From assembly GCA_009602735.1 (NCBI GenBank), contig WELA01003469.1:434045-454044 (forward strand): a DNA stretch of 20,000 bases. Direction: 5' to 3'. Of the stretch, positions 1 to 20,000 are shown piece after piece. The position numbers and the translations under genes were made by a program. Numbering within the stretch: position 1 is the stretch's first letter; each line of letters starts with the position of its first letter. The notes below the pieces were generated by a model. That model had not been told where the DNA came from and did no database searches. It worked only from the letters and a program-made list of their open reading frames with translations. Source of the stretch: Mesotaenium endlicherianum. Its lineage: Eukaryota.

Positions 1-3000
1 CCTGAAGTCTCCGGGCTTCTAGTAGAGAGACTTGGGGCTGGTCCAAGATGGGGGTTGGCAATATGGAAGCGCTTCAACTTCCGTTGAACTTTGTCAAGGT
101 AGTGCGCCGCCACCCAACTATTCTCCGAATCTGGATATCCTTTCCACTTGATCAAGTATTGCTGCTGTCTCCTGAAATTTCTCATAGCCATTATGTCTTC
201 CACTTCGTACTCCAAATGATCATCCACTATTGTTGGGGCTGGTGGGGTTGTCACACGTCCTGGGAACTTGTTGTCGGGTTGCACATATGGCTTGAAGAGG
301 GAAGCGTGGAATACGGGGTCGATGTGCATAGTCTGGGGAAGTTCTAGCTTGAAAGCAACGGGGTTGACTTGCTGGATAATCTTGAAGGGTCCCAAATACT
401 TGGGAGAGAACTTGCTGCCGGCAGGCCTGTTGTTCAGGGAAATGTTCTTGGATGATAGTAACACGTTGTCACCCACTCTGTACGTAATTTCTCTTCTGGA
501 TCTGTTCGCCACTCTTGCTTGAGCATCTTGCGCGTGTTGTAGAGCTTTCTTCGCTGCTGTAAGGGCTGCTTCTAATGTCTCCATAAAATCTGTGGCTGCA
601 GGTACTTCATCATGGCCAGCCGTGAAGCTCAGTGGCGTGGTCGGATGGAAGCCATAGTTGAGGAAGAATGGGGACTCTTGGGTAGAGGCCTGCGTAGTGT
701 TGTTGTAGGCAAACTCGAGGGGGGTCAAGTACATGTCCCAGTCTTGCTCGAGGGTAGACACGTAGGCCTTTAGAGAGGTCTTTAGGGTACGATTCATACG
801 CTCGGTTTGCCCATCTGATTGTGGGTGGTAGGCAGTAGACATATCCAGCGATGTACCCAAGTTCTTGAAGAGATTTTTCCAGAAATGGCTTGTGAATCTT
901 GGATCTCTATCTGACACAATTCTTGATGGTAGTCCATGGAGTCGGAAGATGTTGTCAAAGATGAGTCTTGCAAGTTGTGGTGCTGTAGCCTTAGTCGTCG
1001 TGGGAATAAAATGAGCCATCTTGGTAAGTCTGTCCACCGCCGTGAGTATTGCATTATGGCCTCGAGGTGTCACGGGCAAGTCCACGATAAGGTCCATTGA
1101 GATGTCCGTCCATTGTCTTTCGGGGATTGGTAGTGGTTGGAGGAGTCCTCCCGCCTTTTGCGATGATGGCTTGATTCTTTGGCATGTGTCACAGCTCCTG
1201 CAGTACTCCTTGACTTGCTTAGACATGCCTGGCCAACAATAAGTCCTAGCTAGAACGCCCGTGGTCCTTAGGATTCCAAAGTGTCCTCCAAGAGGGTTGT
1301 CGTGTGCTTCTCGTAGAAGCAAGAGCCGGAGGTCTAAGTCATTAGGAACACATCTCTGGCCCGTATCTTGCCTCACCCAATAATTGCCTTCTTGCTTCTT
1401 GCATGGGTCCAAGGCTGCTTCTCCGTTCTTGTAGTAAGGGTCTCTTTCATAGGCGGCTGAAAATCGAGCTTCCAGATCTGTCTTCAGGGATACCATCACT
1501 GCATTTAATTGCAGTCTTGAGAGGGGGTCAGCCGGGTTTGTCTTGCCGGGCTGGTACTGAATCGTGATGTTGTATTGTTGCAAGTATCCGCTCCATCTTG
1601 CTTGTCTCCTTGAGAGATACGGCTGCGTTTGGAGGTGCTTTAACGCCTCGTGGTCCGTGGTGACCAGTACTTTGCGTCCTTCAACGTAGCAGCGCCAAAC
1701 CTTCAAGGCATGTACAATCGCCAATGCCTCTCGCTCCGTGGTTGTATAATTTTGCTCGGCTGGATTTAGCTTCCTTGACTCGTAGGCGATGGGCTGCAGT
1801 CCCTTGCCTTGGTCTTGAAGCAGGATTGCTCCTATTGCATAGGAAGATGCATCGGTGATGACGTGGAAGGGCCAATCTGGGTTTGGACTTGGGAGTGTGA
1901 GCACCGGGGATGTGGTCAATCTTCGCTTTAACTCTTGAAATGCCTCTTCCTCTTTCTCGGTCCATGTATATAGCCTGTCCTTCTTGAGTAGATCTGTCAG
2001 GGGGGCTGCTATGTGCGAGAAGCCTTGGATGAATTTTCTGTACCAATTGGCAAATCCCAAGAATGACTGGAGTTCTTTCTTGGTCGTGGGGGTTGGCCAT
2101 TCCTCCACCACCGTGGTCTTCTTGGGGTCCATCTTGATGCCATCAGCAGTCACGTGGAGACCTAGGAACTCCACTTCTTGTTTGGCAAACTCGCACTTTG
2201 ACTCCTTCGCAAATAGCTTGTTTTGCTTCAATACTTCAAGGACTTCTTTCAAGTGTCTCGCATGCTCTTCAAGGGTCTTGCTGTAGATAAGGATGTCATC
2301 GATGAATACCACCACAAATCTGTCCAACATGGGCTGAAATATGGTGTTCATCATAGTCATGAAAGTTGCTGGCGCGTTGGTGAGTCCAAATGGCAGGACC
2401 ATGAACTCAAAATGTCCATATCTTGTCCTGAATGCCGTCTTCTCTATGTCCGGTTCTGCGATGCGAATCTGGTGGTAGCCGCTCCGTAAGTCAATCTTCG
2501 TGAAGTACTTGGCTCCAACCAGCCGGTCCATGAGCTCATCCATGCGCGGCAGCGGGTATCGATTCTTGATGGTGATCTTGTTGAGGGCGCGATAGTCCAC
2601 ACACATCCTCAAGGTACCATCTTTCTTCTTGACAAATAGCACCGGGGCTCCAAATGGCGACTTGCTAGGTCGAATGAAGCCATGCTCCAGTAGCTCCTTG
2701 ATTTGCTTCTTGACTTCGTCTAGCTCCGTGTATGACATTTTGAACGTAGGCCGAGAGATGGGCTTGCTTCCGGGCTCCAACTCTATCTTGTGGTCTACGA
2801 ATCTTTTGGGGGGTAGGCCCTTGGGCAATTCCGGGGAGAACACTTCTTTGTAGTCCTCTAAGACTTCTTGTATCTCCTTGGGAACGGGGCTGCCTTCTTG
2901 ACTCTCGATGTCTTTCTTGATGTCTTTTGGCGTGATCAAGGCCAAAAGAAGCTCGTGTCCCTTCCTCACAAGTCTCTTGAGTTGGAGGGCGGACAATAGT

Positions 3001-3530
3001 ATCTCGTGTGCCGGCTTCTGGATGTCTTGGGTCTGGATATTCTGGATTGCGCGCAAAATACAGATTCTTGAAGTGATGTCATTCTTGATCTTGATAGTAC
3101 CGGTCCTCCAATCAACTTGGGGGTTGTGCTTGGTCAACCAAGGCGTCCCTAGGATGACGTCGTACTTGCCCAATTGCATGGGGGAGAACACTACTCTATC
3201 CTTGAAGGACTTGATAGAGAGTGCCAAGGGGTACGTCTTCTTGGAAGGGGTAGTATAGGAGAATCCATCGGGCATCATAATCTCCTCGTCGTGGTCAAGA
3301 GTTCGCATAGTAATACCGTGCTTGGTGGCAAAATCTGCAGCAATGAAGTTGCCTTGAGCTCCGCTATCCACCAAGATGTGGACCTTCTCTCCTCCAAGGT
3401 AACCTCTCAAACTCATTGGGGCTGGAACGTCGTCTTCAACGGGGGTCTCCACCTCACTTGGCGTGTTGCCTTCTCGTGAAGTGGGTCTTGGGGTGGTAGG
3501 CTCCTGGCCTACCGGCGCTGTCCGTTTTTT
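1..3530 (-). CDS. pol: Pol polyprotein (protease, RT, RNase H, integrase, chromodomain), reached by -1 frameshift; 3'-partial
   Basis: Manual translation: [10 protein letters not shown] (DSG 3360-3368), [10 protein letters not shown] (~2580-2610), [12 protein letters not shown] (FIDD 2295-2306), VITDAS (~1845-1862), HHCC zinc motif (~1180-1305), DRD, QTER, GPF, and chromodomain [23 protein letters not shown] (~110-212). The frame at the slip site, DSG, FIDD and base 1 is the same. The ORF track lists nothing in this frame, consistent with no stop before the window edge. Confidence 0.95.
3495..3530 (-). promoter_or_regulatory. Predicted -1 programmed ribosomal frameshift signal (A_AAA_AAC plus stem-loop)
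   Basis: Gag codons TCA AAA AAC give A AAA AAC (3530-3524); the -1 frame is pol; hairpin GGTAGGC-CAGGA-GCCTACC at 3513-3495. Confidence 0.8.
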
Positions 3531-4789
3531 GACAACTTTTTGGGGCATGAAAGTGCACGATGGCCCTTTTCCTTGCAATAAAAGCATAGTCCAGCCGTCA
3601 TGAGAGCTTCTTTTTCAGCCGGGGAGAGTCTTGCTTTCACTCCTTGCTGGTTTCTTGCATCATAAGTGTCATTGGAGGGTCTTCCACTCTTCCGGGCAGC
3701 CGCGGGGTCCCTTTTAATAACTCCGATTTCCATGGGTGTGGGTCCAGATTCGGATGTGGAAGGGGCTGCGTACACCCGCGTCGTCGGTACCCGTGAAGAT
3801 GAAGGCACGGAGTGCTTGAAATCCAAGGTATCCACCTTTTGGGCCACTTCAATGATCTTTGAGAAGTCCGTCAAGTCGCGTAACTCCACTTCCTTTGCCA
3901 CCTTGGGTTTGAGGCCAAAGATGTAGCGGTCAATCTTCTCCTCGAGAGACATGTTGGGGATCTCAAGAGTGAGGGCGTGAAATCTGGATGTATACTCTTG
4001 AACGGACGTCGTTTGCTTGAGATGGTGGAGCTTTCCTCGGGCAATCTTCTCCGCATTGATGGGCATGAATTGCTTCTTGAGGGCCTCACGAAAATCTGCC
4101 CATCTTGCATATGATGGTGGGGGCTCTTGGCCGAGCATGGGGTGCGCCATAGCTTGATATATAGCCGCTTGATAGTTACGCCACCATGATGTTGCTGCTC
4201 CTCTAAGTAAGGTAACGGCAAAGGGAACGTAGTCCTCCTCGGGTACTTCAAGGAATGCGAGGTACGTCTCCACTTGGTAGAGCCATAAATTCAGGTTGGC
4301 ACCTTTCCCGGGGTTGAAAGTGTCGGGTTTGCCGGGCTTGATGAGTTTCCTTGCTCTCGTTGGCTCTTGTGGAGGCGCTTGAGCCGGGGCTGGATTTTGA
4401 GCATTGCTCGCAATAGGGGCAACCATGGCAGCCATAGCTTCTCTTGACGCTTGCACGGTTGCTTCATAGGTGGCCAAGCCCACTTGGTTGTGGACGGTCA
4501 TTAGGAAGGCTGCCCACTCATTTGCGGGAACTCCTTGTGGTGGGGTCAACTTTGCTATAGCGGCTGCCACGGGATTTGACGGTGCTCCTCCTTGTGGTGC
4601 TTCTTGTTGTTGGAGATTTCCTTGAGTAGGCTCTCCCATCGACGCTGGAGGAGGGTGTGCTCCTCCTTGTGGTGCTTCTTGTTGTTGCAGATTTTCTTGA
4701 GTGGGCTCTCCCATCGGCGCTGGAGGAGGGTGTCTTGGAGAGGAAGGGCTTCCTTCGAAAGCTTGCTGTTGGTCTTGAGGATCGGCCAT
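3509..4789 (-). CDS. gag: Gag (retrotransposon capsid domain plus CCHC zinc knuckle), 426 aa
   Basis: [59 protein letters not shown] lies just downstream of the PBS. Confidence 0.96.
4583..4732 (-). repeat. 75-bp in-frame tandem duplication in gag N-terminus
   Basis: [25 protein letters not shown] / [25 protein letters not shown]. Confidence 0.95.
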
Positions 4790-4809
4790 CTTCTTGTGCT
4801 ACCAAAGTG

Positions 4810-5329: not shown

Positions 5330-6037
5330 GAAAACATGCCTTCGTCAAATGGGCGAAGAATGCAGGCCGGATAGATATCAGCAGGCTGAAAGCCAAGCAA
5401 CCTCCAGCGCGCCCTAAGAAAGGGAGATCAGTAGACTACTCCATGTCTACCAGAGAGCAAAACGACTTAGTTGACGAGACTCCTACTCTTTCAGAGGAGG
5501 AGGATGAGGGGGATGAGGAAGAAGAACAAGGTAGAGGCGAAGCATCAGGAGCTGGTACTCAGGAGACCCAGGGGCAAGCAGGGGCACTTCCTAAGGAACC
5601 AAGATCAGGTATATGGAACGTGATCCCCGTCATGGAGGCAACTGGACCCCGCACTCGCTCCCCCATTCCACCTGCCCATGCAAGGGGAAGAAGCTAATCT
5701 GATTGTACTGGGCAGCAGACACAGGCAGAAATCCCCAGAGGACAGGGGTTTCAGAAGAGGGATACGCGGGGTGGCCAGAGGTATGCCGGCCTTCCCCTTT
5801 GCTCATGGACATGTACCTCTTGCCAATGTATTTCAGCATCCTATTGGAATGCCTGTCTATGTGGGGATCAACATCCAAGTGGGTGAAGAGCAGGCTACCA
5901 TCCTTCGTTCTCCTCGAGGTCCAACTTTAGAACAAACGGGGTTCTTTAGAAGGCCAGCGGACAGACCTAGACGGCTGTCTAGATCTAGGTCCAGATCTCC
6001 GTCTCCAGATCCTGAAGCCCCAGGAACAACCCCCTAA
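5330..6037 (+). pseudogene. Disrupted 3' ORF of family B, unknown protein (acidic tract, C-terminal RS-rich tail); frame switch near 5650-5700
   Basis: KHAFVKWAKNAG (one frame) and GMPVYVGINIQV..PTLEQTGFFRRPAD (next frame) are both conserved in the second copy, with mostly synonymous differences. Confidence 0.6.
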
Positions 6038-6132
6038 GGTGACAGGCTGAAAAGGCAGTCAGTGGGGGAGGCTGGTCAGGTTCAGGTCCCTTATTTAAGA
6101 CTTTTGCAGTTTAATGTTGTCGAGGCGACAAC

Positions 6133-6150
6133 AAGTTAAGTTGGAGGGAT
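6133..6150 (+). promoter_or_regulatory. Polypurine tract of family B
   Basis: AAGTTAAGTTGGAGGGAT directly before the LTR's TGT; TGGAGGGAT also abuts the second LTR copy (12813-12821, minus). Confidence 0.75.
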
Positions 6151-6868
6151 TGTAATGAATCAGTATGTTAGTAGATGTAATATTCATTTAAATATAATAT
6201 TATTTAAGTTCAGCCTACTGAACTCTAGTTGATTATCCGTCTGCTGGACTTTATATTTAATATCGGTTTAATGACTCAGCCGGAAGTAGCAGGCTAAAGT
6301 CCACTTAAGTCAGCTTGCTGACACATTCTTTAACAGCCAGCTGACTTCCGTACTCGGTAGCGGCAAACTGCCTCGATATGCATCTAAGTATGATATGTTA
6401 GATGAATGGCCAGATGACATCCCTATGATGGATGGCGATTCGGGATGATGGGAGATGGTGGTGGATTTGGTTAACCGAGGTCCTACCAACGTGGTTAACT
6501 CCCGGGTAGGCGATGCCATCGCACTAGCCGTTGAACAGTAACTCATTCCATGTACATATGCTAGGCATTGCTCTCGAGTTTGGCACTCGGAAATGAGGCC
6601 AACTCTCTTGTACAGCTTACTGAGAGAGATCTGAATCCAAGGCGAGAAGCCATTGATACGCACTGTCTTCTAACCTTGCTTATGTATGAGTTTACTGATT
6701 GCATTATCGATGCTAGTTTACTCGCATTTCAATTACGAGTATTGTTCCCTGCTAGTGTGTTGTCCTTTGCCGTTTAACCAATTAACGGAAAATACCATAA
6801 AGATTACTTGCTGATATAAAGATCTTTATTAATTGTTAATTGCCTATTTGGTAAGTCGATTCATTTCA
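6151..6868 (+). repeat. 3' LTR of family B (718 bp)
   Basis: Termini TGTAATGAATC...GATTCATTTCA (10/11 inverted match); homology to 12060-12812 stops at the CA end. Confidence 0.92.
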
Positions 6869-7889: not shown

Positions 7890-7960
7890 TTCCCTCCCCC
7901 TCCCCCCNNNNNNNNNNNNNNNNNNNNNNNNNNNNNNNNNNNNNNNNNNNNNNNNNNNNN

Positions 7961-8018
<58 letters not shown>

Positions 8019-9869
8019 CTTTCCGTGTGAGTTTGACATGCATGTAGGCATGGGATGAGTGAGTGACCGACCAAGTTTGCCCCCAAGGTGCCCACCAGGA
8101 GGCTCGTCAAAAAGGCCTCCCTTAAGCGTGTGTAAGCTGCTGTTCTCTTTGTCTACTGCCAGCCTCCGCCGTTGTCAAGCACTTATTATTTGCCGCTCCC
8201 TCACGCTGTTCTTTTTGCTTCCTGCCAGCCGCCCCCGCCCCCCCTATCTATCGTGCTGTTTTTTTGCCTGCTTCCAACCCCCCTTTCTTTCTTTTGCTGT
8301 TGTATGTGCCTGCTTCTTTATGCTGTTATTCTTGCTCTCACGCTGTTAATATTGCCTGCTTCCAACCCCTTCTCCTCTCACGTTGCTAAATTTGCTTGCT
8401 CTCTCACGCTGTTATTCTTGCTTGCTGCCAAACCACTCCCCCCCTTTTCACGCTTTTATTTTTGCCTGTTGCCTGCCTGTTGCCTCCACCCCCCTCTCTC
8501 CTGTTATTAGTCCCCAACCCCCTCTTCCTCTCTCTCTCTCTCTCTCTCTCNNNNNNNNNNNNNNNNNNNNNNNNNNNNNNNNNNNNNNNNNNNNNNNNNN
8601 NNNNNNNNNNNNNNNNNNNNNNNNNNNNNNNNNNNNNNNNNNNNNNNNNNNNNNNNNNNNNNNNNNNNNNNNNNNNNNNNNNNNNNNNNNNNNNNNNNNN
8701 NNNNNNNNNNNNNNNNNNNNNNNNNNNNNNNNNNNNNNNNNNNNNNNNNNNNNNNNNNNNNNNNNNNNNNNNNNNNNNNNNNNNNNNNNNNNNNNNNNNN
8801 NNNNNNNNNNNNNNNNNNNNNNNNNNNNNNNNNNNNNNNNNNNNNNNNNNNNNNNNNNNNNNNNNNNNNNNNNNNNNNNNNNNNNNNNNNNNNNNNNNNN
8901 NNNNNNNNNNNNNNNNNNNNCCCCCCTCTCTATCTCTCCCTCTCTTTCTCTCTCTCCCTCTCCCTCTCCCTCACCCCCACGCTTTCCCTGTCCCTCTTTC
9001 TTTTTTTCCCTCTTTTTCTTCTCTTTCTCGCGCACGCTATTTTTGTCATGTTTGCTCCTCGTTGGCTGCCCTAGCCCTCCTCTCCTTTAGTTATTTTTTT
9101 CCGTTGCCGGTGCCTCCTTTCTCTTCCACGCTCTCTCTCCTCCCTCTCCCACACCCTTTGCTTTCCTACTCCCTCTTTCTCTTTCTCCCTCCCACTTCTC
9201 TTCTGCGCACACGCTATTTTGTTGTGTTTGCTCTTTGTTGGCTTCCCCACTCCTCCTCTCAATTTATTCAGTTTGCCTGTTGCCAACCCCTCCTTTATCG
9301 CGCCCTCACTCACCCTCTCCCTCACCCTCTTCTTCTCCCTCTCTCTCTCCCTCTTTCTTCCCCTCTTTTTCTCTCTCTCTCTCCGTCTTTCTCCCCCTCT
9401 CTCCCTTTTCTGTCCCTCTCACTCTCTCAATCTCCCTCTCGCTCTCTCTCCACCCCATCTCTCTCTCCCTCTCCCTCCATTTCTCTCTCTCCCTCTCCCT
9501 GTCCCTCACCGTCACGCCCCTTCACCCTCTTTCTTCCTCTCCCTGTCCCTCACCCTCAGGCCCCTTCTCCCTCTTTCTCTTTCTCCCTCTCTCTCTTCTC
9601 TTTCTTGCATACGGTGTTTTAGCCTTGTTTGCTCCTTGTCGGCTGCCCCTCCTTTCCTCATATTGTTGCTTTTGCTTGTTGCCAGCCCCTCCTCTCTCTC
9701 TCTCGCTCTCTCTTCTCCCTCTCCTCACCCTCTTGCTTTTTCTCTCCCTCTTTTTCTTTCTCCCTCTCTCTCTTCTCTTTCTCGCTCACGTTGTTTTTGT
9801 TGTATTTGCTCCTCGCTGGCTGCCCCATTCCTCCTTCATTTTTTTTAAATTGCCTGTTGCCAATCCCTC

Positions 9870-9920
<51 letters not shown>

Positions 9921-10400
9921 CTCTCCCTCAGCCTCTCGCTTTCCCTCTTCCTCATTCTCCTTCTCCCTCTCTTTCTTATCTTTCTCGCACACGCTCTCTT
10001 TCTTGTGTTAGCTCAACGTTAGCTGCCCTACCCATCTCATATTCTTTATTTTGTCTGTTGCCAGCCCCTCCTTTGATTTTGTTCTATTAACAGACAATTT
10101 ACATTATGTATTCAATTTTGGAGGGAGAATGAGGCAAATGAGAGGTGGTAGAGGCNTCTCATTATGTTTATTCTGCCTGCTGCCAGCTCCTCCTCTCTCG
10201 CGCTCTCCCTCACCCTGTCCCTCACCCTCTTCCTCTCTCTCTCTCTCGCTCTCTCTCCTCTCTCTCCCTCAGCCTCTCGCTTTCCCTCTTCCTCATTCTC
10301 CTTCTCCCTCTCTTTCTTATCTTTCTCGCACACGCTCTCTTTCTTGTGTTAGCTCAACGTTAGCTGCCCTACCCATCTCATATTCTTTATTTTGTCTGTT
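7890..10400. repeat. CT-rich low-complexity / (CT)n microsatellite tract with a degenerate larger unit; assembly gaps 7908-7960 and 8551-8920
   Basis: Pyrimidine-rich plus strand, (CT)n runs, recurring TGC(C/T)TGTTGCCA(A/G)CCCC and CACGCT(G/A)TT motifs. Confidence 0.9.
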
Positions 10401-10496
10401 GCCAGCCCCTCCTTTGATTTTGTTCTATTAACAGACAATTTACATTATGTATTCAATTTTGGAGGGAGAATGAGGCAAATGAGAGGTGGTAGAGGC
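9913..10496 (+). repeat. ~245-bp identical direct duplication (offset 341) around the single N at 10156; probable unmerged contig overlap
   Basis: 9913-10155 matches 10254-10496; the first copy ends exactly at the N. Confidence 0.85.
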
Positions 10497-10724
10497 ACTT
10501 CCACGAGGTGGTTGCATCCCTTGTGGCTGGATAATGAGTTCCTAGACACTAGGATGTAGGACAGACTTGATTACTGTCATGCTTGTAAGGTAGAGCTTAG
10601 CTCTTACGTTTTAATTAGGTGGCTATAGAGGTACAAAGTATATATTGTTGGGATCTCATATTTTTAGTTTGGATTTTAATGTCTGTACCAATTTTGCACG
10701 TGAATTGCCATTCATAATGAGGTC

Positions 10725-12059: not shown

Positions 12060-12821
12060 TGAAATGAATCGACTTACCAAATAAGCGATTAACAATTAAT
12101 AAAGATCTTTATATCAGCAAGTAATCTTTATGGTATTTTCCGTTTAACTGGTTTAACGGCAAAGGACGACACACTAGCAGTGAATAATACTCGTCAGTCA
12201 AATGAGAGTAAACTAGCATCAATAATGCAAATCAGTAAACTCATACATAAGCAAGGTTAGAAGACAGTGCGTATCAATGGCTTCTCGCCTTGGATTCAGA
12301 TCTCTCTCAGTAAGCTGTACAAGAGAGTTGGCCTCGTGTCCGAATGCCGAACTCGAGAGCAATGCCTAGCATATGTACATGGAATGAGTTTACTGTTCAA
12401 CGGTCAGTGCGATGGCACCGCCTACCCGGGAGTTAACCACGTTGGTAGGACCTCGGTTAACCAAATCCACCGCCATCTCCCATCATCCCGAATAGCCATC
12501 CATCATAGGGATGTCATCTGGCTATTCATCTAGCATACCGAACTTAGATGCATATCAGGGTAGTTCGCTGCTACCGAGTACGGAAGTCAGCTTGCTGTCA
12601 AAGAATGTGTCAGCAAGCTGACTTATATGGACTTTGAGCCTGCTGCTTTCGACTGAGTCAGCAAACTGATAATTATGTAAAGTCCAGCAAATTGACTATT
12701 AACTAAATTAAAGTCCAGCTGACTGACTATTAACTAAAGTTCAGCAGGCTGAACTTAATTAACTATTCTATTTAAATGAATATTATATCCACTAATATAC
12801 TGATTCATTACAATCCCTCCA
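12060..12821 (-). mobile_element. Second family B copy: 3' LTR (12060-12812) plus PPT; remainder collapsed at N 12822
   Basis: Reverse-complement homologue of 6142-6868; CTCTA at both 12055-12059 and 12823-12827. Confidence 0.9.
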
Positions 12822-12977
12822 NCTCTAGGAGGCTCTCCTATGTCCACTAATGTGTACAAGGCATGTACCAGCACTCCTATAGGCTAAGCATCACTCAAAC
12901 CAATCAAAGCAAGGTGCGTAGGATATGCTACGTGTCCCTCATTGGCCGAGCTTACCTTGGGTGATTCTACCTAGATN

Positions 12978-13114
12978 TACAGCCCTCTAGGTTTGTCAGC
13001 TGGCCTTCTAAAGAACCCTGTTTGCTCTAAAGTTGGCCCTCGGGGAGAATGGAGGATGGTGGCCTGCTCTTCAACCACTTGGGTGTTGATTCCCACATAG
13101 ACAGGCATTCCAGT
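12978..13114 (-). repeat. Family B internal fragment between single Ns
   Basis: Inverted homologue of ~5844-5978; encodes GMPVYVGINTQVVEEQATILHSPRGPTLEQTGFFRRPAD. Confidence 0.9.
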
Positions 13115-13634: not shown

Positions 13635-13728
13635 GCCTGCGTTCTTTGTCCATTTGACAAAGGCATGCTTTCCCTTAGAGAAGTACTCTCTTCCCCTCCT
13701 CCTATGTTCCTTGGTCTCTGCATTCATA
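13635..13728 (-). repeat. Family B internal fragment spanning the empty site of the family A insertion
   Basis: Reads ...CTCTAAGGGAAAGCATGCCTTTGTCAAATGG; matches GAAAACATGCCTTCGTCAAATGG from 5330. Confidence 0.85.
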
Positions 13729-13729
13729 N

Positions 13730-13870
13730 ATCTTCGCAGAACCAGTCTCCAGCTGGCACGCGGGCCACCGGCGGGTCGAGGCAGCCGATGTGGAAGCCAA
13801 GGTTGCAGCTGTCGCAGAGCAGCATCTTGGCCTCCTGGCCAGTGCTGTGACAGATCTGGCACGCCCAGTC
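13730..13870 (-). other. PHD finger (C4HC3) at the integrase C-terminus
   Basis: DWACQICHSTGQEAKMLLCDSCNLGFHIGCLDPPVARVPAGDWFCED; the last Cys would fall at the N. Confidence 0.92.
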
Positions 13871-13899
13871 CTTGGGCGGCCGCGCGTCGCTGGGACGGA

Positions 13900-16690
13900 C
13901 CTGCAAGTCAAGGTTAGGAAGGTGGCACGGCCCACAATTCTTCGTGTGGTCCTTGTGAAGACGGCCATCTGCGCCTTCCAGCTCCAGGACTCCTGATGCC
14001 AAGGCACGCTTGACGCGCAGGATGACCGGCGAGCTGCTGGTGTCGAGGGTGTTCTTCGTNCGAGGGTGTTTTTCGTCTGGCGTCGCAGGTACACGAAGTC
14101 TCCTGCGAAAAACTGCAACACCTGCGGATGATAGGCTCCTCCACAAGTCATGGCGTACCTCAGTGTGTCGCGATGCTGTGCGATGCTGAGGCTATCCATG
14201 GCCATGGGCATCAGGCGCCGAAAGAGCTGAGCACGCTGCCCGATAAGAGCACTCCATATCTCGGGACTGTCTAAGTCCAAGACGTTCTCGGCCACAGTCC
14301 TGGCTGCTGCTGGCAGGATGGGCTGTCGGCCGTAGAGAAGGAAGTAGGGAGAGTGCGAGGCCAAGGAGGCCTGCTTATTGAACCTGTACCCCATCGCTAG
14401 CCAAGGGAGGGCGTCGTCCCAGTGGGTACGGTCGTGGGCAAGGCAGTACTTCCGCAACCCTAGCTTGACGGTCTGCACCATGCGCTCGGCGAGGCCGTCA
14501 GCCTGAGGATGATCACGGGAGGTGGTGCGGTGGTCGATCATAGAGCGCTCCAGCAGCTTCTGAAAGCTGCCCTGGAACTCCTTGCCCTAGTCGGTCAGCA
14601 CCTCAACGCAGCCGCCAAAACGGCTAAGGACCTGATCGAGGAAGGCCTGAGCGATCCCCTCACTGGCCTTGCTGGGCAAGGGCACGAGCTCGATCCACTT
14701 GGACATGTGCTCAATCATCACCAAGACGTAGAGGTTGCCCTGGCGAGACTTGGGCAGCTCTCCAGCCAAGTCAAGCAACCACCTGTAGAACAGCCCCTGA
14801 ATAGGAAGGGGGCTGAGGGCAACGGTGCGCGCTGTGAAGCTCGAGCACACACGGTCGCAGAGAGTGCAGCTGCTGACGACAGCGGCGACGACCTTAGTCA
14901 TGCCGTGCCACCAGTACTTGGCTTGAAGAAGACTGAGGGTGCGCTTGACACCGAAGTGCCCGAAGGACTCGTGCACTTGGCGCCACAGCTGACTGCGTAT
15001 GGCAGGCTCAGGGACCACCAGGACGGAGCCGTCCGCCATCGCGCGCCGCACGCGCCCCTCCATGAAAATGAAGTCGCGGCTGCGCCTGAGGATGCGGTCG
15101 CGCTCGCGTGCGCTGACATCGGGTGCCAACTCCTTGGCCGTGACAAACTGCAGCACTGGGGCGTCGTCCCACACGTCTTCAGGACCGCGCTGCCAGCTGT
15201 CCTGATCCTCTGCCGCTGCCAGGGCCAATCGCCGAGTGGTGACGGTCACCATGTCCAGGCTAGTGAGCCCTGCGGGCCGCACATCGCCGTCCACGGTGAA
15301 GGCCAGGAAGGCCGCCACGTGCCAGGCCACCGGTTCATCCTCATCGTGGCGGGCCACAGTGAGATCCCTCAAGGAGGGCAGCGGGTTACGGCTGAGACCG
15401 TCAGCGTCCAGGTTGGTCAAGCCTGGACGGTGGTGCACGTCGAAGGTGTACTCTTGCAAGATAAGCGCCCACCGTGCGTACTTGCCGGTCAAGCGCTCCG
15501 ACGTCATGAGCCACTTAAGTGGCTGATGGTCGGTGACCAGGCGGAAGTGCGTGCCGTAGAGATAGTGCCTGAAGTGCATGATTGCCCAGATCGCTGCCAG
15601 GCACTCCCCCTCGTAGGAGCCGTAGTTGCCTACCGCGCGGTTGTTGCTGCGGCTGGCGTAGGCCACCACATGCTCAAAGCCGTCATGCTCCTGCACTAGC
15701 ACAGCGCCCAGCCCTGCCTGCGACCAGTCGGTGTGGAGGATAAAGGGCTTCGCGTAGTCAGGACGCCGAAGCACCGGAGCGCTCACCAGCAGCTCCTTGA
15801 GCTTATCGAATGCCGCCTGCTGCTCTGGTCCCCACACGTAGGCAACGCCCTTGCGGAGCAAGTCGTTGAGCGGCTTGGCTAGCTCGCTGAACCCTGGCAC
15901 AAAGCGGCGGTAGTAGTTGGCGATGCCAAGGAAGGCCCGCAGCTGCGAGAGATCTGTAGGAGGTGGGATGCCTGTGATGGCCGAGATCTTCGCTAGCTGG
16001 GGTGCCAAGCCGCTGGAGGAGAGCAGGTGGCCAAGGTACTCCACCTCGCGGGTCCCAAAAGTGCACTTGCCTGGATGGCACTTGAGCCCAGCGGCCTCCA
16101 AGCGGTCCAGGACGCAGTGATGTGCGCCACGTGCTCCTCAAACGTCTGACTGAAGACAAGCACGTCATTGATGTAGCATCGGGCAAAGGACAGCCCGGCC
16201 GGCTCCTTATCCATCACCCTCTGAAAGGTAGCTGGCGCGTTCTTCAACCCAAACGGCATCACCACCCACTCGTAGAGCCGCTGTGCTCCCCAGAACGCCG
16301 TCTTATGTGGGTCCTCCTCGGCGATGGGAATCTGGTTGAAGCCCTGACGCAGATCCAGCACTGAGAACCAAGTGCACGTGCCAATGTTGTCAAAGATCTC
16401 GTCAAGCGTCGGCATAGGATATCTGTCCAGCTCGATGACCTCGTTCAGCCTACGATAGTCACCGCACATCCTGTCTGCGCGCTGATCAAGCCATCCTTGA
16501 AGTGGCTGTAGCGATAACGCTTCAGGAAAACGGGCTCCTGCGACGTAAGAGTAATCCGCATGGGGTCCCCCCTGTAGCGCCCGAGATCGTGCATGCCGCT
16601 GGCAAAGCTGGTGCTGCGCCTCCCGTCCAGCAGTGCCGTCAACTGTGCAGCCTGCGCCTTGGTGAGTGTCCCCCCCAGCTTCCATGTCGG
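13900..16690 (-). pseudogene. pol: RT - RNase H - integrase of the DNMT-Gypsy element, disrupted
   Basis: [38 protein letters not shown] (for YIDD), LRAFLGIANYYRRF, HTDWS, YEGECLA, TDHQPL, HESFGHFG..CTLC, LDLAG, LTD*G, HPQADGLAER. Lesions: deletion ~16475, 1-nt loss ~16113, stop 14587-14589, N junction 14060. Confidence 0.95.
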
Positions 16691-16815
16691 TGGAGCTGGT
16701 GGCGTCGCCTGGCCTGCAGTTGGAGTCTCCTGTCTTGCCGCTGGGGTAGACTCTGGTGCTGCAGGTGTCACCTGCCCTGCAGCGGTTGGCGCTTGGCCTG
16801 CCGCGGGTACCTGCA
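16685..16815 (-). repeat. Degenerate ~21-bp (7-aa) coding repeat, (T/V)PAAGQx, in the DNMT-RT linker
   Basis: [42 protein letters not shown]. Confidence 0.75.
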
Positions 16816-17149
16816 CCGTGGCAGCTGCGGCCAGCTGCCTGGCACCGTCTGCCTGCGAGCGAGGAAAAAGAAAGGGTGACCGGGACATCCTGGGTGACCG
16901 AGACTCCCTAAGTCGCTGTGAGGACTCCTCTCTCCGCCGTCTCCCCCCCAGCGAACCAGAGTCCTCCCTGCGCGGCGGTGGGGAGGGGGGGCGGGCGCGC
17001 ACCTGCGGTGCAGGCCCTGCGCGCTAAGGATGCCACGTCGTGCCGGGCGGGGCCTGATTGTCATCGTCGGTGGAGTCATCGTCCATATCATCGGCAGGCC
17101 TCGGCAGCTCGGGATGCCGGGCTGCGGCGTAGAGAGGCGCCAAGGCCTG

Positions 17150-18100
17150 CGTCTGCAGCAAAATCCACGTGAGGACGTTGGCGTCGATCACCTGCCCCAA
17201 GAGGCGAATGCGGTTCACCTCAGTGGGACCGTCCACCTGTGTGAGATGCGGCGGGAAGCCCATGGCACGCTCCATCTCCGCAGAGCGCGGCCTGTCAAAC
17301 ATGCCAGTCTCCAGGTCAATGACCATCCCGCGCTGATCTCCGACGAAGGCGTCGCTGTCGTAGCGGCTGACAAAAGTCGGCAGCGCGCGAGTGACGTCAT
17401 GCTGGACCTCACACTGCGCCATGGAGGGATGTGGTAGTGCAGTCACGCACTGGGCCAGACGAGGGGCGTCGAGGATGGAGTCAACGGTTCGTGGGTTACG
17501 TTGATGAGAGGCGGCCATTGCCTCGAGATTACCTGGCATCGCCAGGTTTGTGAAGTAGGCGCGGACGCGGTGCGTGAAGGAACCAATCTGGGCAGCGTCG
17601 ATGACGGCCTCGCAGCCGACGTAGCTGCTGCAAAGAGCAAAGTCGGAGCTAACATCGGGTCGATAATCGTGGCGCGCGGCCACGTTCTCCAGGACCCACG
17701 CGCGTGTGTGCGGCGGCTGGCGATCCAAAAAAATTTGAGGACGCGGAGCAAGTGCCAAAAGAGGGCCGTGCGGGGATCGCTGAGCGCCCTGCCACGCCCG
17801 GCTCTGGAGAAACCCTGGCACTCCCAACCGGCGATGACGAGGTCATTTGTCTCAAGGCGGGTGACATGCTCGACGGTGATGTCGCGGATGTCCATGGGCC
17901 AGTCTGTCTGAGCGCGGCGGAATGCGTGCGCGGGAAGGAGGTCTAGGAACCGCTCGTGGCACAACGCCATCTGTTAACGGGCCACCTGCTGGGCCTTAGG
18001 ATCGGGATCAACGTAGACGTAGCGGCGCACCGGGATGCCGGCCTGTAAGGTCGCGAGCAACCCGGTGGCGATGCCGGCGAAGAGCTCGATGAGGACAATG
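17150..18100 (-). pseudogene. C5 cytosine DNA methyltransferase domain (DNMT3-like motifs), disrupted by one stop (17974-17976) and one frameshift (A7 run 17727-17733)
   Basis: Motif I LIELFAGIATG, II YVYVD, III DIRDI, IV DLVIAGWECQGFS (Cys 17818-17820), VI VLENV (17681-17689), VIII DAAQIGSFTHRVRAYFTNL, IX EMERAMGFPPHLT, X RIRLLGQVID, all in canonical order. Confidence 0.93.
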
Positions 18101-18879
18101 CCGCCAGGCCGCTCGTCTAGAGCGTCTGCGCAGATAGGAGTCGGAAGTGGGCGACACCCCATTGCAGGGGTGCCGGGCTGAGCGGGCAGCGGGAAGGTAC
18201 GCTCGGCGCTGTGCTGATGTGGCGCCATGCGGAGGGCGGCCACAGCACGGTCTGCGTAGTCACGCGTAAGGCTAGGGATGCAGTTAGTGAGCGGCTGCGG
18301 ACGCTCCTCCCGTGCGTGGTCCTGATAGGTGCGCCACCGCAGGCGCGCATCCTGCAGGGCTGGAGAGACAGCGCGGGACTGACGTCGGTCCTAGGCCACG
18401 CACAGCTGCTGCCACCTGTCGCGCTGGGCGCGGTCAGTCTGGTGCGAGGCCGCGTGGGCCAGATGGTCGAGAACGGGATGCTGTGTTAAGTAGGGGTGCA
18501 GGTCGAAGTAGGCCCGTTGGCGTGCGCGCATGTCTGCAGAGGGGACTGTGCAGACGGAGCGCTCGGAGCTGTCGACCTCCTGCGGGGACCAAACTAACCG
18601 GCGAGGGGCCAGTTGGACTCGCGGCCAAGGCTGCCCTCGTGGGACGGGCGCGTCTCGGGGTTGCCGGAGACTAGGCATGAGCCGTGTGCATGCGGCGGCC
18701 GTAGATGGGTGGCGACTGGGCGGCCTGCTGTCGATGCGGGCCACCTTGGGAGGAGGTGACCCGGAGGGACCGTCGCCAGCGATGTGGCTGCGAGGGACGC
18801 TGGCGCGCGGAGCTGTAGGGGCCAGCATCACATAATGCGCCTCGGAATAAGACTGAGCGTCGTCGCCAACTGAGAGGGG

Positions 18880-19100
18880 CCGGAAGGGCGGAGTGCGGCG
18901 TCGGTCTCGAGTGTCGTCGTATGGCGGCGTGTCCCCGCGGGCCCGCGTGTCGTCGTAAGGAGGCGTGCGCTCCCTGTCGTCGTAGGGCGGCGTGATGGAG
19001 CGGGCTCGCGTCTCGCGGAGGGGAGTCACCTCTCACGTCTCGCAAAGGGGTGTCAGCGATCGGGAGCGGCTCGTCTCGCGGAGAGGAGTGGTCTCTCGAG
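18880..19100 (-). repeat. Coding repeats TPLRET x3 and TPPYDD x3 upstream of the DNMT
   Basis: TTPLRETSRSRSLTPLCET*EVTPLRETRARSITPPYDDRERTPPYDDTRARGDTPPYDDTRDRRRTPPF. Confidence 0.8.
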
Positions 19101-20000
19101 CGGGCCCGATGGTCGGCCTAGTGCAATGTGCGTAGGTCAGATGGGCGCAGATAGACGGGGTCGTGCGGGGTGGCTCGCGGACGCTGAGCCTGGGCGCTGG
19201 CTGCTGTATGGAGTGTGTGCCAGCGCTAGAGGAGGCCGTGGCAGCCTGGCTTGTCGCAAACAAATGCACGATGCGGCGACACACGTGGCTCGTCGAGCAG
19301 TCGTGTGACACTGGACGGCTGGGTCTAGCGGCGTCGGTGCGAGCCTTGCTGGGCCAGTCGTGTGTCATGGGCTGGCTGGGTGCGCTGAAGCCGGGCGGAC
19401 CAGTAGGTGCGCGGTGCCTGCGTGCCGTAGGCGCAGCTGGCGGGGGCTCCGCGCTGAGTACCTCGACGGATGCCTCTGGCAGTCGCTCCCACTGTGTCTC
19501 CTCCTCACTCTTGAGGGACTGGTCGTCGGATCTGCCAGGAGAAGCTGCCTGCCGCATGACCTCGTCCTCGGATGCCGTGGTGCGAGGCCAGGTCTCACCG
19601 GTCTGATGCGAGGCGTCGTGAGGGGGCGGCTGAGAGTCCATACTGTACTGAATGGCCACGCCAACAGGCACGTCGTGGCAAACGGGGACGTCGGTCCTCG
19701 CGGACGGCTCGCCGCGAGAGGCCAAGACCCCCTGATGAGCTGTAGGCGCTGCGGCCGCACCGCGAGCAAGGGCGGCGGCAGCGATGGCTGTGCTGGCCGT
19801 GGCGAGGGCCTCAGTGCCATCGTTTGCCATCTGCCGCATCATCGCGCTGTGGGCAGTGCAGATGCGGATCTGCTCCCTGGCCTGGGCTGCCAGGACATCC
19901 GCCTGCTGCTGCGGCGTGAGGTGGAGCTCGGCACTAGGTAGGTCCGGCTCCTCGTCCTGTGGCTCGAGCAGGTCCACCCCCACAGAGATCTCCTCGTCCT

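What the first reader, a model, noticed from the sequence alone, without database searches (positions are those of the whole stretch)
13730..20000. Gypsy retrotransposon whose polyprotein encodes its own cytosine DNA methyltransferase
Seen: a full set of C5-MTase motifs (I-IV, VI, VIII-X) at ~18100-17150, in the same reconstructed frame as the upstream linker and the downstream RT entry, so the DNMT is part of the polyprotein rather than a neighbouring gene. Motifs VIII-X (DAAQ..HRVRAYFTNL, EMERAMGFP, RIRLLG) resemble the DNMT3/DRM-type catalytic domain but in non-permuted order. Known: from memory, DNMT-carrying retrotransposons have been reported in dinoflagellates and charophyte algae, so the class is rare rather than unprecedented; this family or host may be new. 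Inference: the packaged enzyme could pre-methylate the cDNA or integration site (host mimicry or self-dampening).
Basis: partly seen in the sequence, partly recalled or inferred. Interest (0 to 1): 0.93.

Follow-up and report, generated by a model that had tools for sequence, protein, structure and literature searches.

The report
Retrotransposon with built-in DNMT3-like methyltransferase
This is a broken copy of an abundant jumping-gene family, likely from a non-seed green plant or alga, whose replication polyprotein contains a DNA cytosine methyltransferase like animal DNMT3 that likely methylates the element's own new copies; the kind of element is already known from an alga, and this is a new family of it.

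Summary
Confirmed, and of a known kind. The minus strand (20000 to 13731) holds a decayed Ty3/Gypsy Pol: long linker, C5 cytosine methyltransferase (18120-17102), RT, RNase H, integrase, PHD finger. Motifs I-IV, VI, VIII-X are unpermuted with the catalytic Cys, Glu and both Arg. The frameshift inside the domain and the stop between it and RT are peculiar to this copy, so the enzyme is part of Pol. The family is multi-copy in at least three coded organisms. Its DNMT has 376 relatives; those with flanking domains are Gypsy polyproteins in two layouts: DNMT before RT (this one, Closterium) or between RNase H and integrase (Monoraphidium). Profile and fold rank DNMT3A/B first. The class is in print: KnitGypsy-Dnmt3 of Klebsormidium (PMC5890265). 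New: a family about 40% identical to its nearest relative, a probably histone-reading PHD, two DNMT positions across green lineages, possibly a land-plant host. Host, terminal repeats, expression and activity are not shown. Likely role: methylating its own cDNA.

The parts
18121..20000 (-). Pro/Ala/Arg-rich linker of at least 626 codons upstream of the DNMT, same frame as the DNMT N-half; stops at 19035 and 18393; contains short T-P-P/L repeats (about 19100-18890). No protease D[ST]G motif; Gag and protease are presumably beyond the window.
   Evidence: no hit to relatives; family contigs cover it
17735..18120 (-). DNMT3-like methyltransferase, N-half (motifs I-IV, catalytic Cys); stop at 17976; frameshift at about 17734
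   Evidence: frameshift absent from other copies
17102..17734 (-). DNMT3-like methyltransferase, C-half (motifs VI, VIII, IX, X)
16685..17101 (-). Acidic then Pro/Ala-rich linker from DNMT to RT, in frame; the stop at 17026-17024 is peculiar to this copy
15760..16684 (-). Reverse transcriptase; deletion near 16470 and frameshift near 16113 in this copy
   Evidence: RVT_1 E 1.9e-19; loose ends at 16470-16472, indel at 16113
15448..15759 (-). RNase H
   Evidence: PF17917 E 3.3e-36
14200..15006 (-). Integrase: zinc-binding domain and core; stop at 14589 peculiar to this copy
13731..13864 (-). PHD finger at the integrase C-terminus, reached across a 17-base duplication near 14055; cut one codon before its last Cys
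   Evidence: (PF00628 E 5.6e-12)
13728..13731 (.). Junction with an unrelated repeat: family contigs run on for about 145 other bases past 13731, and contigs of the neighbouring repeat run on past 13728; this copy's 3' end is lost
   Evidence: tables 7 and 8

Best explanation
This is a dead copy of a multi-copy Ty3/Gypsy retrotransposon family whose polyprotein holds a DNMT3-like cytosine methyltransferase just before the reverse transcriptase and a PHD finger after the integrase; in working copies the enzyme is likely packaged with RT and likely methylates the element's own newly made cDNA. Shown: domain order, one reading frame in the family, intact catalytic motifs, long co-inheritance of DNMT with RNase H/integrase. 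Inferred: the protease releases the DNMT (alone or joined to RT) inside the particle; it methylates the cDNA, most likely at CG as DNMT3A and SymbioDIRS-Dnmt3 do; the PHD, of the type that binds the unmethylated histone H3 tail, steers integration away from H3K4me3 promoters; the new copy thus arrives pre-marked in quiet chromatin, which disguises it as host DNA or dampens it and lowers its cost. Odds: identity and architecture 0.97; catalytically competent in the active family 0.8; own cDNA as main substrate 0.5.
For: Domains. Breaks peculiar to this copy. One contig of run X5 spans 17156-18994 and one of X6 17207-18654, tying DNMT to the upstream linker; DNMT is covered at the same order of depth as RT in all four runs laid. 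Intact relatives: P0001, P0051, P0160, P0162, P0170, P0236 have zinc knuckle, protease motif, DNMT and RT in one ORF. Conservation at about 40% overall identity: catalytic Cys in 184 of 184 relatives with a residue there, motif VI Glu 185 of 186, motif VIII Arg 184 and 185 of 186. DNMT distances track RNase H/integrase distances in 77 non-redundant of 87 elements (Spearman 0.64, 0 of 999 permutations as high). DNMT3 type: profile E 1e-24 for DNMT3A against 2e-13 for DRM and 3e-9 for HhaI; a model of relative P0005 (pLDDT about 80-98 over the domain) matches DNMT3A/B at Z 27.7, rmsd 2.7, 272 aligned, against 24.4 for the best bacterial enzyme. PHD best matches are KMT2C/D, CHD4, PHF12, WSTF, KAT6A, UHRF1, KDM5, PHF21A, AIRE; Gly, not Trp, stands two places before the zinc His in 86 of 96 relatives; that such fingers bind unmethylated H3K4 is recalled, not from a call. 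Precedent: SymbioDIRS-Dnmt3 domains methylate CG de novo in yeast, and the authors propose cDNA methylation (PMC5890265).
Against: No activity is shown for any Gypsy DNMT3: KnitGypsy-Dnmt3 gave no methylation in yeast, called inconclusive by the authors. The element is not CpG-depleted (observed/expected 0.90, 1.10 in the DNMT, against 0.63 in the neighbouring chromovirus and 0.29 in relative L002), so repeated CG self-methylation has left no footprint; SymbioDIRS-Dnmt3 also lacks depletion, so this is not decisive. The E-C motif IV departs from the usual P-C. Most Gypsy families move without a DNMT. The DNMT3 label rests on profile and fold ranks, not on a tree with host DNMT3; phage methyltransferases also score well (90 bits, E 7e-18; three Atlas clusters tie at 0.96, two viral and one streptophyte). 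The fold was made for a relative, not for this copy.
Confidence: 0.55

Rival explanations
1. The enzyme is active but works on host chromatin at the insertion site, travelling with the integration complex and guided by the PHD, much as the ADD domain guides DNMT3A to unmethylated H3K4.
For: In 131 of the 156 relatives whose layout could be read (of 239 proteins examined) the DNMT lies between RNase H and integrase, next to integrase; 89 of 113 such proteins with an integrase carry the PHD. The ADD comparison is recalled.
Against: In this family the DNMT lies before RT, far from integrase, and only 4 of 18 relatives of this layout with an integrase show a PHD, so the two domains are not obligately paired.
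Confidence: 0.25
2. The domain is kept for binding rather than catalysis: it binds or flips cytosines in the cDNA, or acts as a decoy for host DNMT3 or its partners.
For: No activity of KnitGypsy-Dnmt3 in yeast; E-C motif IV; no CpG depletion.
Against: Near-invariant catalytic Cys, Glu and Arg residues and a kept SAM-binding motif I across 186 relatives; human DNMT3B also failed in that yeast assay.
Confidence: 0.13
3. The DNMT benefits the host, as an antiviral methylase kept on a transposon (hypothesis of PMC6338049).
For: Only the published speculation (passages).
Against: The domain stays inside a polyprotein and co-diverges with the replication domains; no sign of domestication; this copy is dead.
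Confidence: 0.04
4. The DNMT is a neighbouring gene, a one-off capture or a nested insertion in this copy only.
For: The copy is fragmented by stops and frameshifts. A related subfamily (P0161, P0163-P0166, P0168, P0008) ends its ORF 78-155 residues after the DNMT.
Against: Other copies read through to RT and cover the DNMT at RT-like depth; 25 relatives have DNMT then RT in one ORF.
Confidence: 0.02

Closest known systems
KnitGypsy-Dnmt3 of Klebsormidium nitens (de Mendoza et al. 2018, PMC5890265; parts 1-4 of 7 of the main text read, three supplements searched; Fig. 4c and the main supplementary PDF not visible)
   Same: Gypsy element with an intronless, unpermuted DNMT3-related domain in the Pol ORF, key residues conserved, green-lineage host.
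   Different: A new family (best relative 41% identical over the DNMT), apparently very abundant; carries a PHD finger (the word PHD does not occur in that paper's text); at least 626 residues of linker before the DNMT against 151-270 in 17 relatives. The Klebsormidium domain order and its DIRS-like repeat layout could not be compared.
Unnamed Closterium polyproteins (CAI5973665.1, CAI7855100.1, CAI7911866.1; P0167, P0171, P0172)
   Same: DNMT directly before RT; same clade in the DNMT and the RNase H/integrase trees.
   Different: About 52% identity in RNase H; no PHD detected; the 12 listed hits of a search with Closterium, retrotransposon, methyltransferase and DNMT3 held no mention of Closterium.
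SymbioDIRS-Dnmt3 and SymbioLINE-Dnmt of Symbiodinium; EpiLTRs of Cymbomonas and Euglena (10.64898/2026.05.21.726589, passages)
   Same: Retrotransposon-borne cytosine methyltransferases.
   Different: Other retroelement classes or other DNMT clades (EpiLTR DNMTs are sister to DNMT4 and come with DAM and a chromodomain).
PHD-bearing Gypsy-7a_cRei of Chlamydomonas (PMC9940879, passages)
   Same: Gypsy Gag-Pol with a PHD finger, proposed to limit harmful insertions.
   Different: No methyltransferase is listed among its domains.
Human DNMT3A/DNMT3B catalytic domain
   Same: Best sequence-profile and fold match.
   Different: About 23% identity in the structural alignment; E-C motif IV; no PWWP or ADD domain; embedded in Pol.

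Membership tests
Ty3/Gypsy LTR retrotransposon | Pol order RT, RNase H, integrase | tested here: met
Ty3/Gypsy LTR retrotransposon | Gag and aspartic protease upstream of RT | tested here: inconclusive
   not inside the window; present in intact relatives of the same layout
Ty3/Gypsy LTR retrotransposon | Long terminal repeats, primer site, target-site duplication | not testable with these tools
   5' end beyond the window, 3' end cut at 13731; no genome held
Gypsy-DNMT3 (KnitGypsy-Dnmt3 kind) | DNMT inside the Pol ORF of a Gypsy element | tested here: met
Gypsy-DNMT3 (KnitGypsy-Dnmt3 kind) | DNMT3-related, unpermuted, intronless catalytic domain with key residues | tested here: met
Gypsy-DNMT3 (KnitGypsy-Dnmt3 kind) | Groups with the Klebsormidium sequences in a DNMT tree | not testable with these tools
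   no Klebsormidium protein came up among named hits; trees held only the fetched relatives
Gypsy-DNMT3 (KnitGypsy-Dnmt3 kind) | DIRS-like arrangement of terminal repeats | not testable with these tools
   ends missing here; relatives L001 and L002 show no terminal repeat pair but are decayed and cut
Gypsy-DNMT3 (KnitGypsy-Dnmt3 kind) | Purifying selection on the DNMT | tested here: inconclusive
   Ka/Ks not computed; near-invariant catalytic residues and co-divergence with RNase H/integrase point the same way
C5 cytosine methyltransferase (PF00145) | Pfam match and motifs I, IV, VI, VIII in order | tested here: met
C5 cytosine methyltransferase (PF00145) | Methyl transfer to DNA cytosine | not testable with these tools
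   needs an assay
Plant DRM | Circularly permuted motif order | tested here: not met
   motifs run I to X; DRM chains match only the N-part of the profile
Chromovirus | Chromodomain after integrase | tested here: not met
   PHD instead; the clade stands apart from 8 outgroup Gypsy sequences, the window's own chromovirus among them
SymbioDIRS-Dnmt3 / DIRS | Tyrosine recombinase instead of DDE integrase | tested here: not met
   H2C2 zinc finger and rve integrase present

The most novel reading that the evidence does not exclude
A young, very abundant Gypsy-DNMT3-PHD family living in a non-seed land plant, where print says methylase-carrying transposons are absent (PMC6338049), and one branch of a green-lineage-wide clade that captured a DNMT3-like enzyme once, before chlorophytes and streptophytes split, and has since carried it at two positions in Pol together with a reader of unmethylated H3K4: a self-contained write-and-target unit that mirrors animal DNMT3A with its ADD domain.
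Probability: 0.35. Interest if true: 0.68.

Novelty: new member of a known kind. Interest (0 to 1): 0.45.

Why it matters
Why a transposon would carry the enzyme that silences it is an open question since 2018; the one Gypsy enzyme tested gave no result. A multi-copy family whose contigs differ from this copy by only about 5%, in several related organisms, plus hundreds of relatives with intact ORFs, gives material to test activity, sequence context and cDNA methylation. The two DNMT positions and named relatives in Closterium, Monoraphidium and Tetraselmis suggest the class is far wider and older than the single alga in print. The window itself holds only a dead, truncated copy.

Tried and rejected
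Expression: no RNA holder listed; two poly-A runs, 6% and 12% read, laid 0 reads on 16660-17260, which is no test because no other stretch showed the organism in them. Host identity: the neighbouring chromovirus Pol found no close named relative (best named 52%, best unnamed 61%); three cluster look-ups named only Closterium and Tetraselmis members; Rfam found nothing. Metagenome scan: 2 loci of 239 candidates, one decayed AT-rich element of the same layout. The upstream linker matched no relative. The Atlas answered once and tied viral and streptophyte clusters; a second query did not complete. Earlier findings of the scan: nothing by place or sequence, nothing for one word set. The review with PubMed id 31726061 is not held. 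Rejected: motif IV E-C as decay (clade trait); the stop at 17026 as a true ORF end; the inverted repeat 5845-6868 / 12060-13112 as this element's terminal repeat (it belongs to another repeat). The exact sister of this family is unresolved in all trees; supports are SH-aLRT from a fast search; P0235 falls outside the DNMT-before-RT clade and P0099 and P0235.
Full report
Observation. The minus strand from the window edge (20000) to 13731 is GC-rich (64%, against 45-51% in the other stretches measured) and encodes, in order, a long linker, a C5 cytosine methyltransferase, RT, RNase H, integrase and a PHD finger. PF00145 passes its cut-off on the unrepaired middle piece, and a profile made from 186 relatives alone scores the two halves 141.5 and 172.8 bits against at most 2.2 in 30 shuffles.

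Is the enzyme part of Pol? This copy has five stops (19035, 18393, 17976, 17026, 14589), frameshifts near 17734, 16113 and 14055, and a deletion in RT near 16470. The stop at 17026, just after the DNMT, could have been a real end of an ORF; indeed a related subfamily ends 78-155 residues after its DNMT. Contigs from public runs settle it: 99% of the depth in run X1 (20 contigs) and the one covering contig of X6 carry a sense codon there, and the only listed indel in 16660-17260 is of three bases. The breaks at 19035, 17734, 16113, 14589 and 14055 are likewise absent from contigs of other copies; 18393 and 17976 were not among the rows displayed. Single contigs span 17156-18994 (X5, 93 differences) and 17207-18654 (X6). 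Twenty of 24 listed runs, from 8 studies and five coded organisms, hold part of the DNMT stretch; I laid four of them, from three organisms. In X1, 7552 contigs lie on the 6.7 kb, and DNMT depth is of the same order as RT depth in all four runs; this shows a multi-copy family that carries the DNMT, though it gives no copy number. Family contigs run about 145 bases beyond 13731 with other sequence, so this copy's 3' end was lost at a junction with another repeat.

Relatives. The DNMT C-half finds 376 proteins. Of 239 proteins examined, 131 have the DNMT after RT/RNase H or directly before integrase, 25 have it before RT like the window, 77 are too short to tell or end after the DNMT, and 6 lack it. 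Named members: Closterium for the DNMT-before-RT layout, Monoraphidium for the other, Tetraselmis without readable layout. The window groups with the DNMT-before-RT elements in the DNMT tree (40 tips, 22 of this layout, none of the other; FastTree support 0.94) and in the RNase H/integrase tree (16 tips, support 0.915); a fast IQ-TREE run on a subset agrees with moderate support. Two proteins of this layout fall outside. DNMT and RNase H/integrase distances correlate (0.64), so the domain has long been inherited with the element. Nearest identities are 41% (DNMT), 63% (RNase H region) and 57% (integrase): a new family.

Enzyme type. Both window halves hit DNMT3A/3C first in the PDB, weakly. 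The profile of 36 relatives gives DNMT3A E 1e-24, DRM 2e-13, HhaI 3e-9. A confident model of relative P0005 (40% identical to the window domain) matches DNMT3A/B best by Foldseek and VIA-align. Against a clean eukaryotic origin, phage methyltransferases also score well, and no tree with host DNMT3 could be built. Catalytic residues are near-invariant; E before the catalytic Cys is the majority state.

Host. Not identified. Three indirect signs point to a non-seed green plant or streptophyte alga: all named relatives are green algae; 19 of 23 displayed C-to-T-type differences of this copy lie in CG or CHG context against 53% expected (p about 0.01; a small, tool-selected sample), as plant-type methylation would give; and the neighbouring chromovirus at 1-4800 has a chromodomain with the aromatic-cage residues (read), which in plants is limited to algae, mosses and club-mosses (PMC6317226, passages). 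Land plant or alga cannot be told.

Mechanism. Most likely the DNMT is made and packaged as part of Pol and methylates the new cDNA, while the integrase-linked PHD binds unmethylated H3 tails (binding class recalled) and biases insertion toward quiet chromatin. This is inference. For it: position beside RT, conservation, and CG activity of SymbioDIRS-Dnmt3 in yeast. Against it: no activity seen for KnitGypsy-Dnmt3 and no CpG depletion here. Rivals are methylation of the target site, a binding-only role, and host benefit.

What is known. De Mendoza et al. 2018 (PMC5890265; parts 1-4 of 7 read, supplements searched, Fig. 4c and the large supplementary PDF not visible) describe KnitGypsy-Dnmt3; a 2025 paper (PMC12344493, passages and part 2 of its supplementary table) and a 2026 preprint (10.64898/2026.05.21.726589, passages) cite it as the streptophyte case. 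PMC6338049 (passages) states that methylase-encoding transposons are absent from land plants such as tracheophytes. Eight literature searches listed no paper on Gypsy-DNMT3 in land plants, Closterium or chlorophytes, or on the two layouts; subscription papers and unseen figures may hold this. Earlier AI notes of this scan report the same kind of element from a peat-moss-like genome; they are unchecked leads.

Verdict. Real, correctly read, a new family of a known rare kind. Interest 0.45; up to 0.68 if the host is a land plant and the class proves green-lineage-wide from a single capture.

Noticed in passing
window 1-4800 (minus): A second, nearly intact Gypsy element: Gag ORF (3509-4798) and overlapping Pol ORF (3-3614) with protease, RT, RNase H, integrase, SH3 and a chromodomain with aromatic-cage residues; best relatives 52-61% identical.
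   Followed up: partly
window 5845-6868 and 12060-13112 (extending by a shared peptide to about 5290 and 13720): Two inverted copies of another repeat, about 88-90% alike, flanking a CT-rich block; contigs show it is multi-copy and continues beyond 13728 in other copies. Class unknown.
   Followed up: partly
window 7900-10500: Strongly strand-skewed CT-rich degenerate tandem region with assembly gaps.
   Followed up: no
proteins P0161, P0163-P0166, P0168, P0008: A subfamily whose zinc knuckle-protease-DNMT ORF of about 1330 residues (1775 in P0008) ends 78-155 residues after the DNMT, so the DNMT may close the first ORF with RT in a second one; DNA context not available.
   Followed up: partly
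proteins P0199, P0007, P0011, P0024 and others: Most relatives carry the DNMT between RNase H and integrase, usually with a PHD; one is Monoraphidium MNEG_11595. I found this layout in no paper listed.
   Followed up: partly
L001 5837-10056 and L002 7164-11381: A decayed, AT-rich (40% GC), strongly CpG- and CHG-depleted element with the same DNMT-RT-RNase H-integrase-PHD order.
   Followed up: partly
window 18890-19100 (minus): Short degenerate repeats encoding T-P-P/L units in an Arg/Asp-rich tract of the linker; weak Spt5 CTD-repeat match below cut-off.
   Followed up: no
protein P0084: A relative with a G-patch domain between DNMT and integrase.
   Followed up: no
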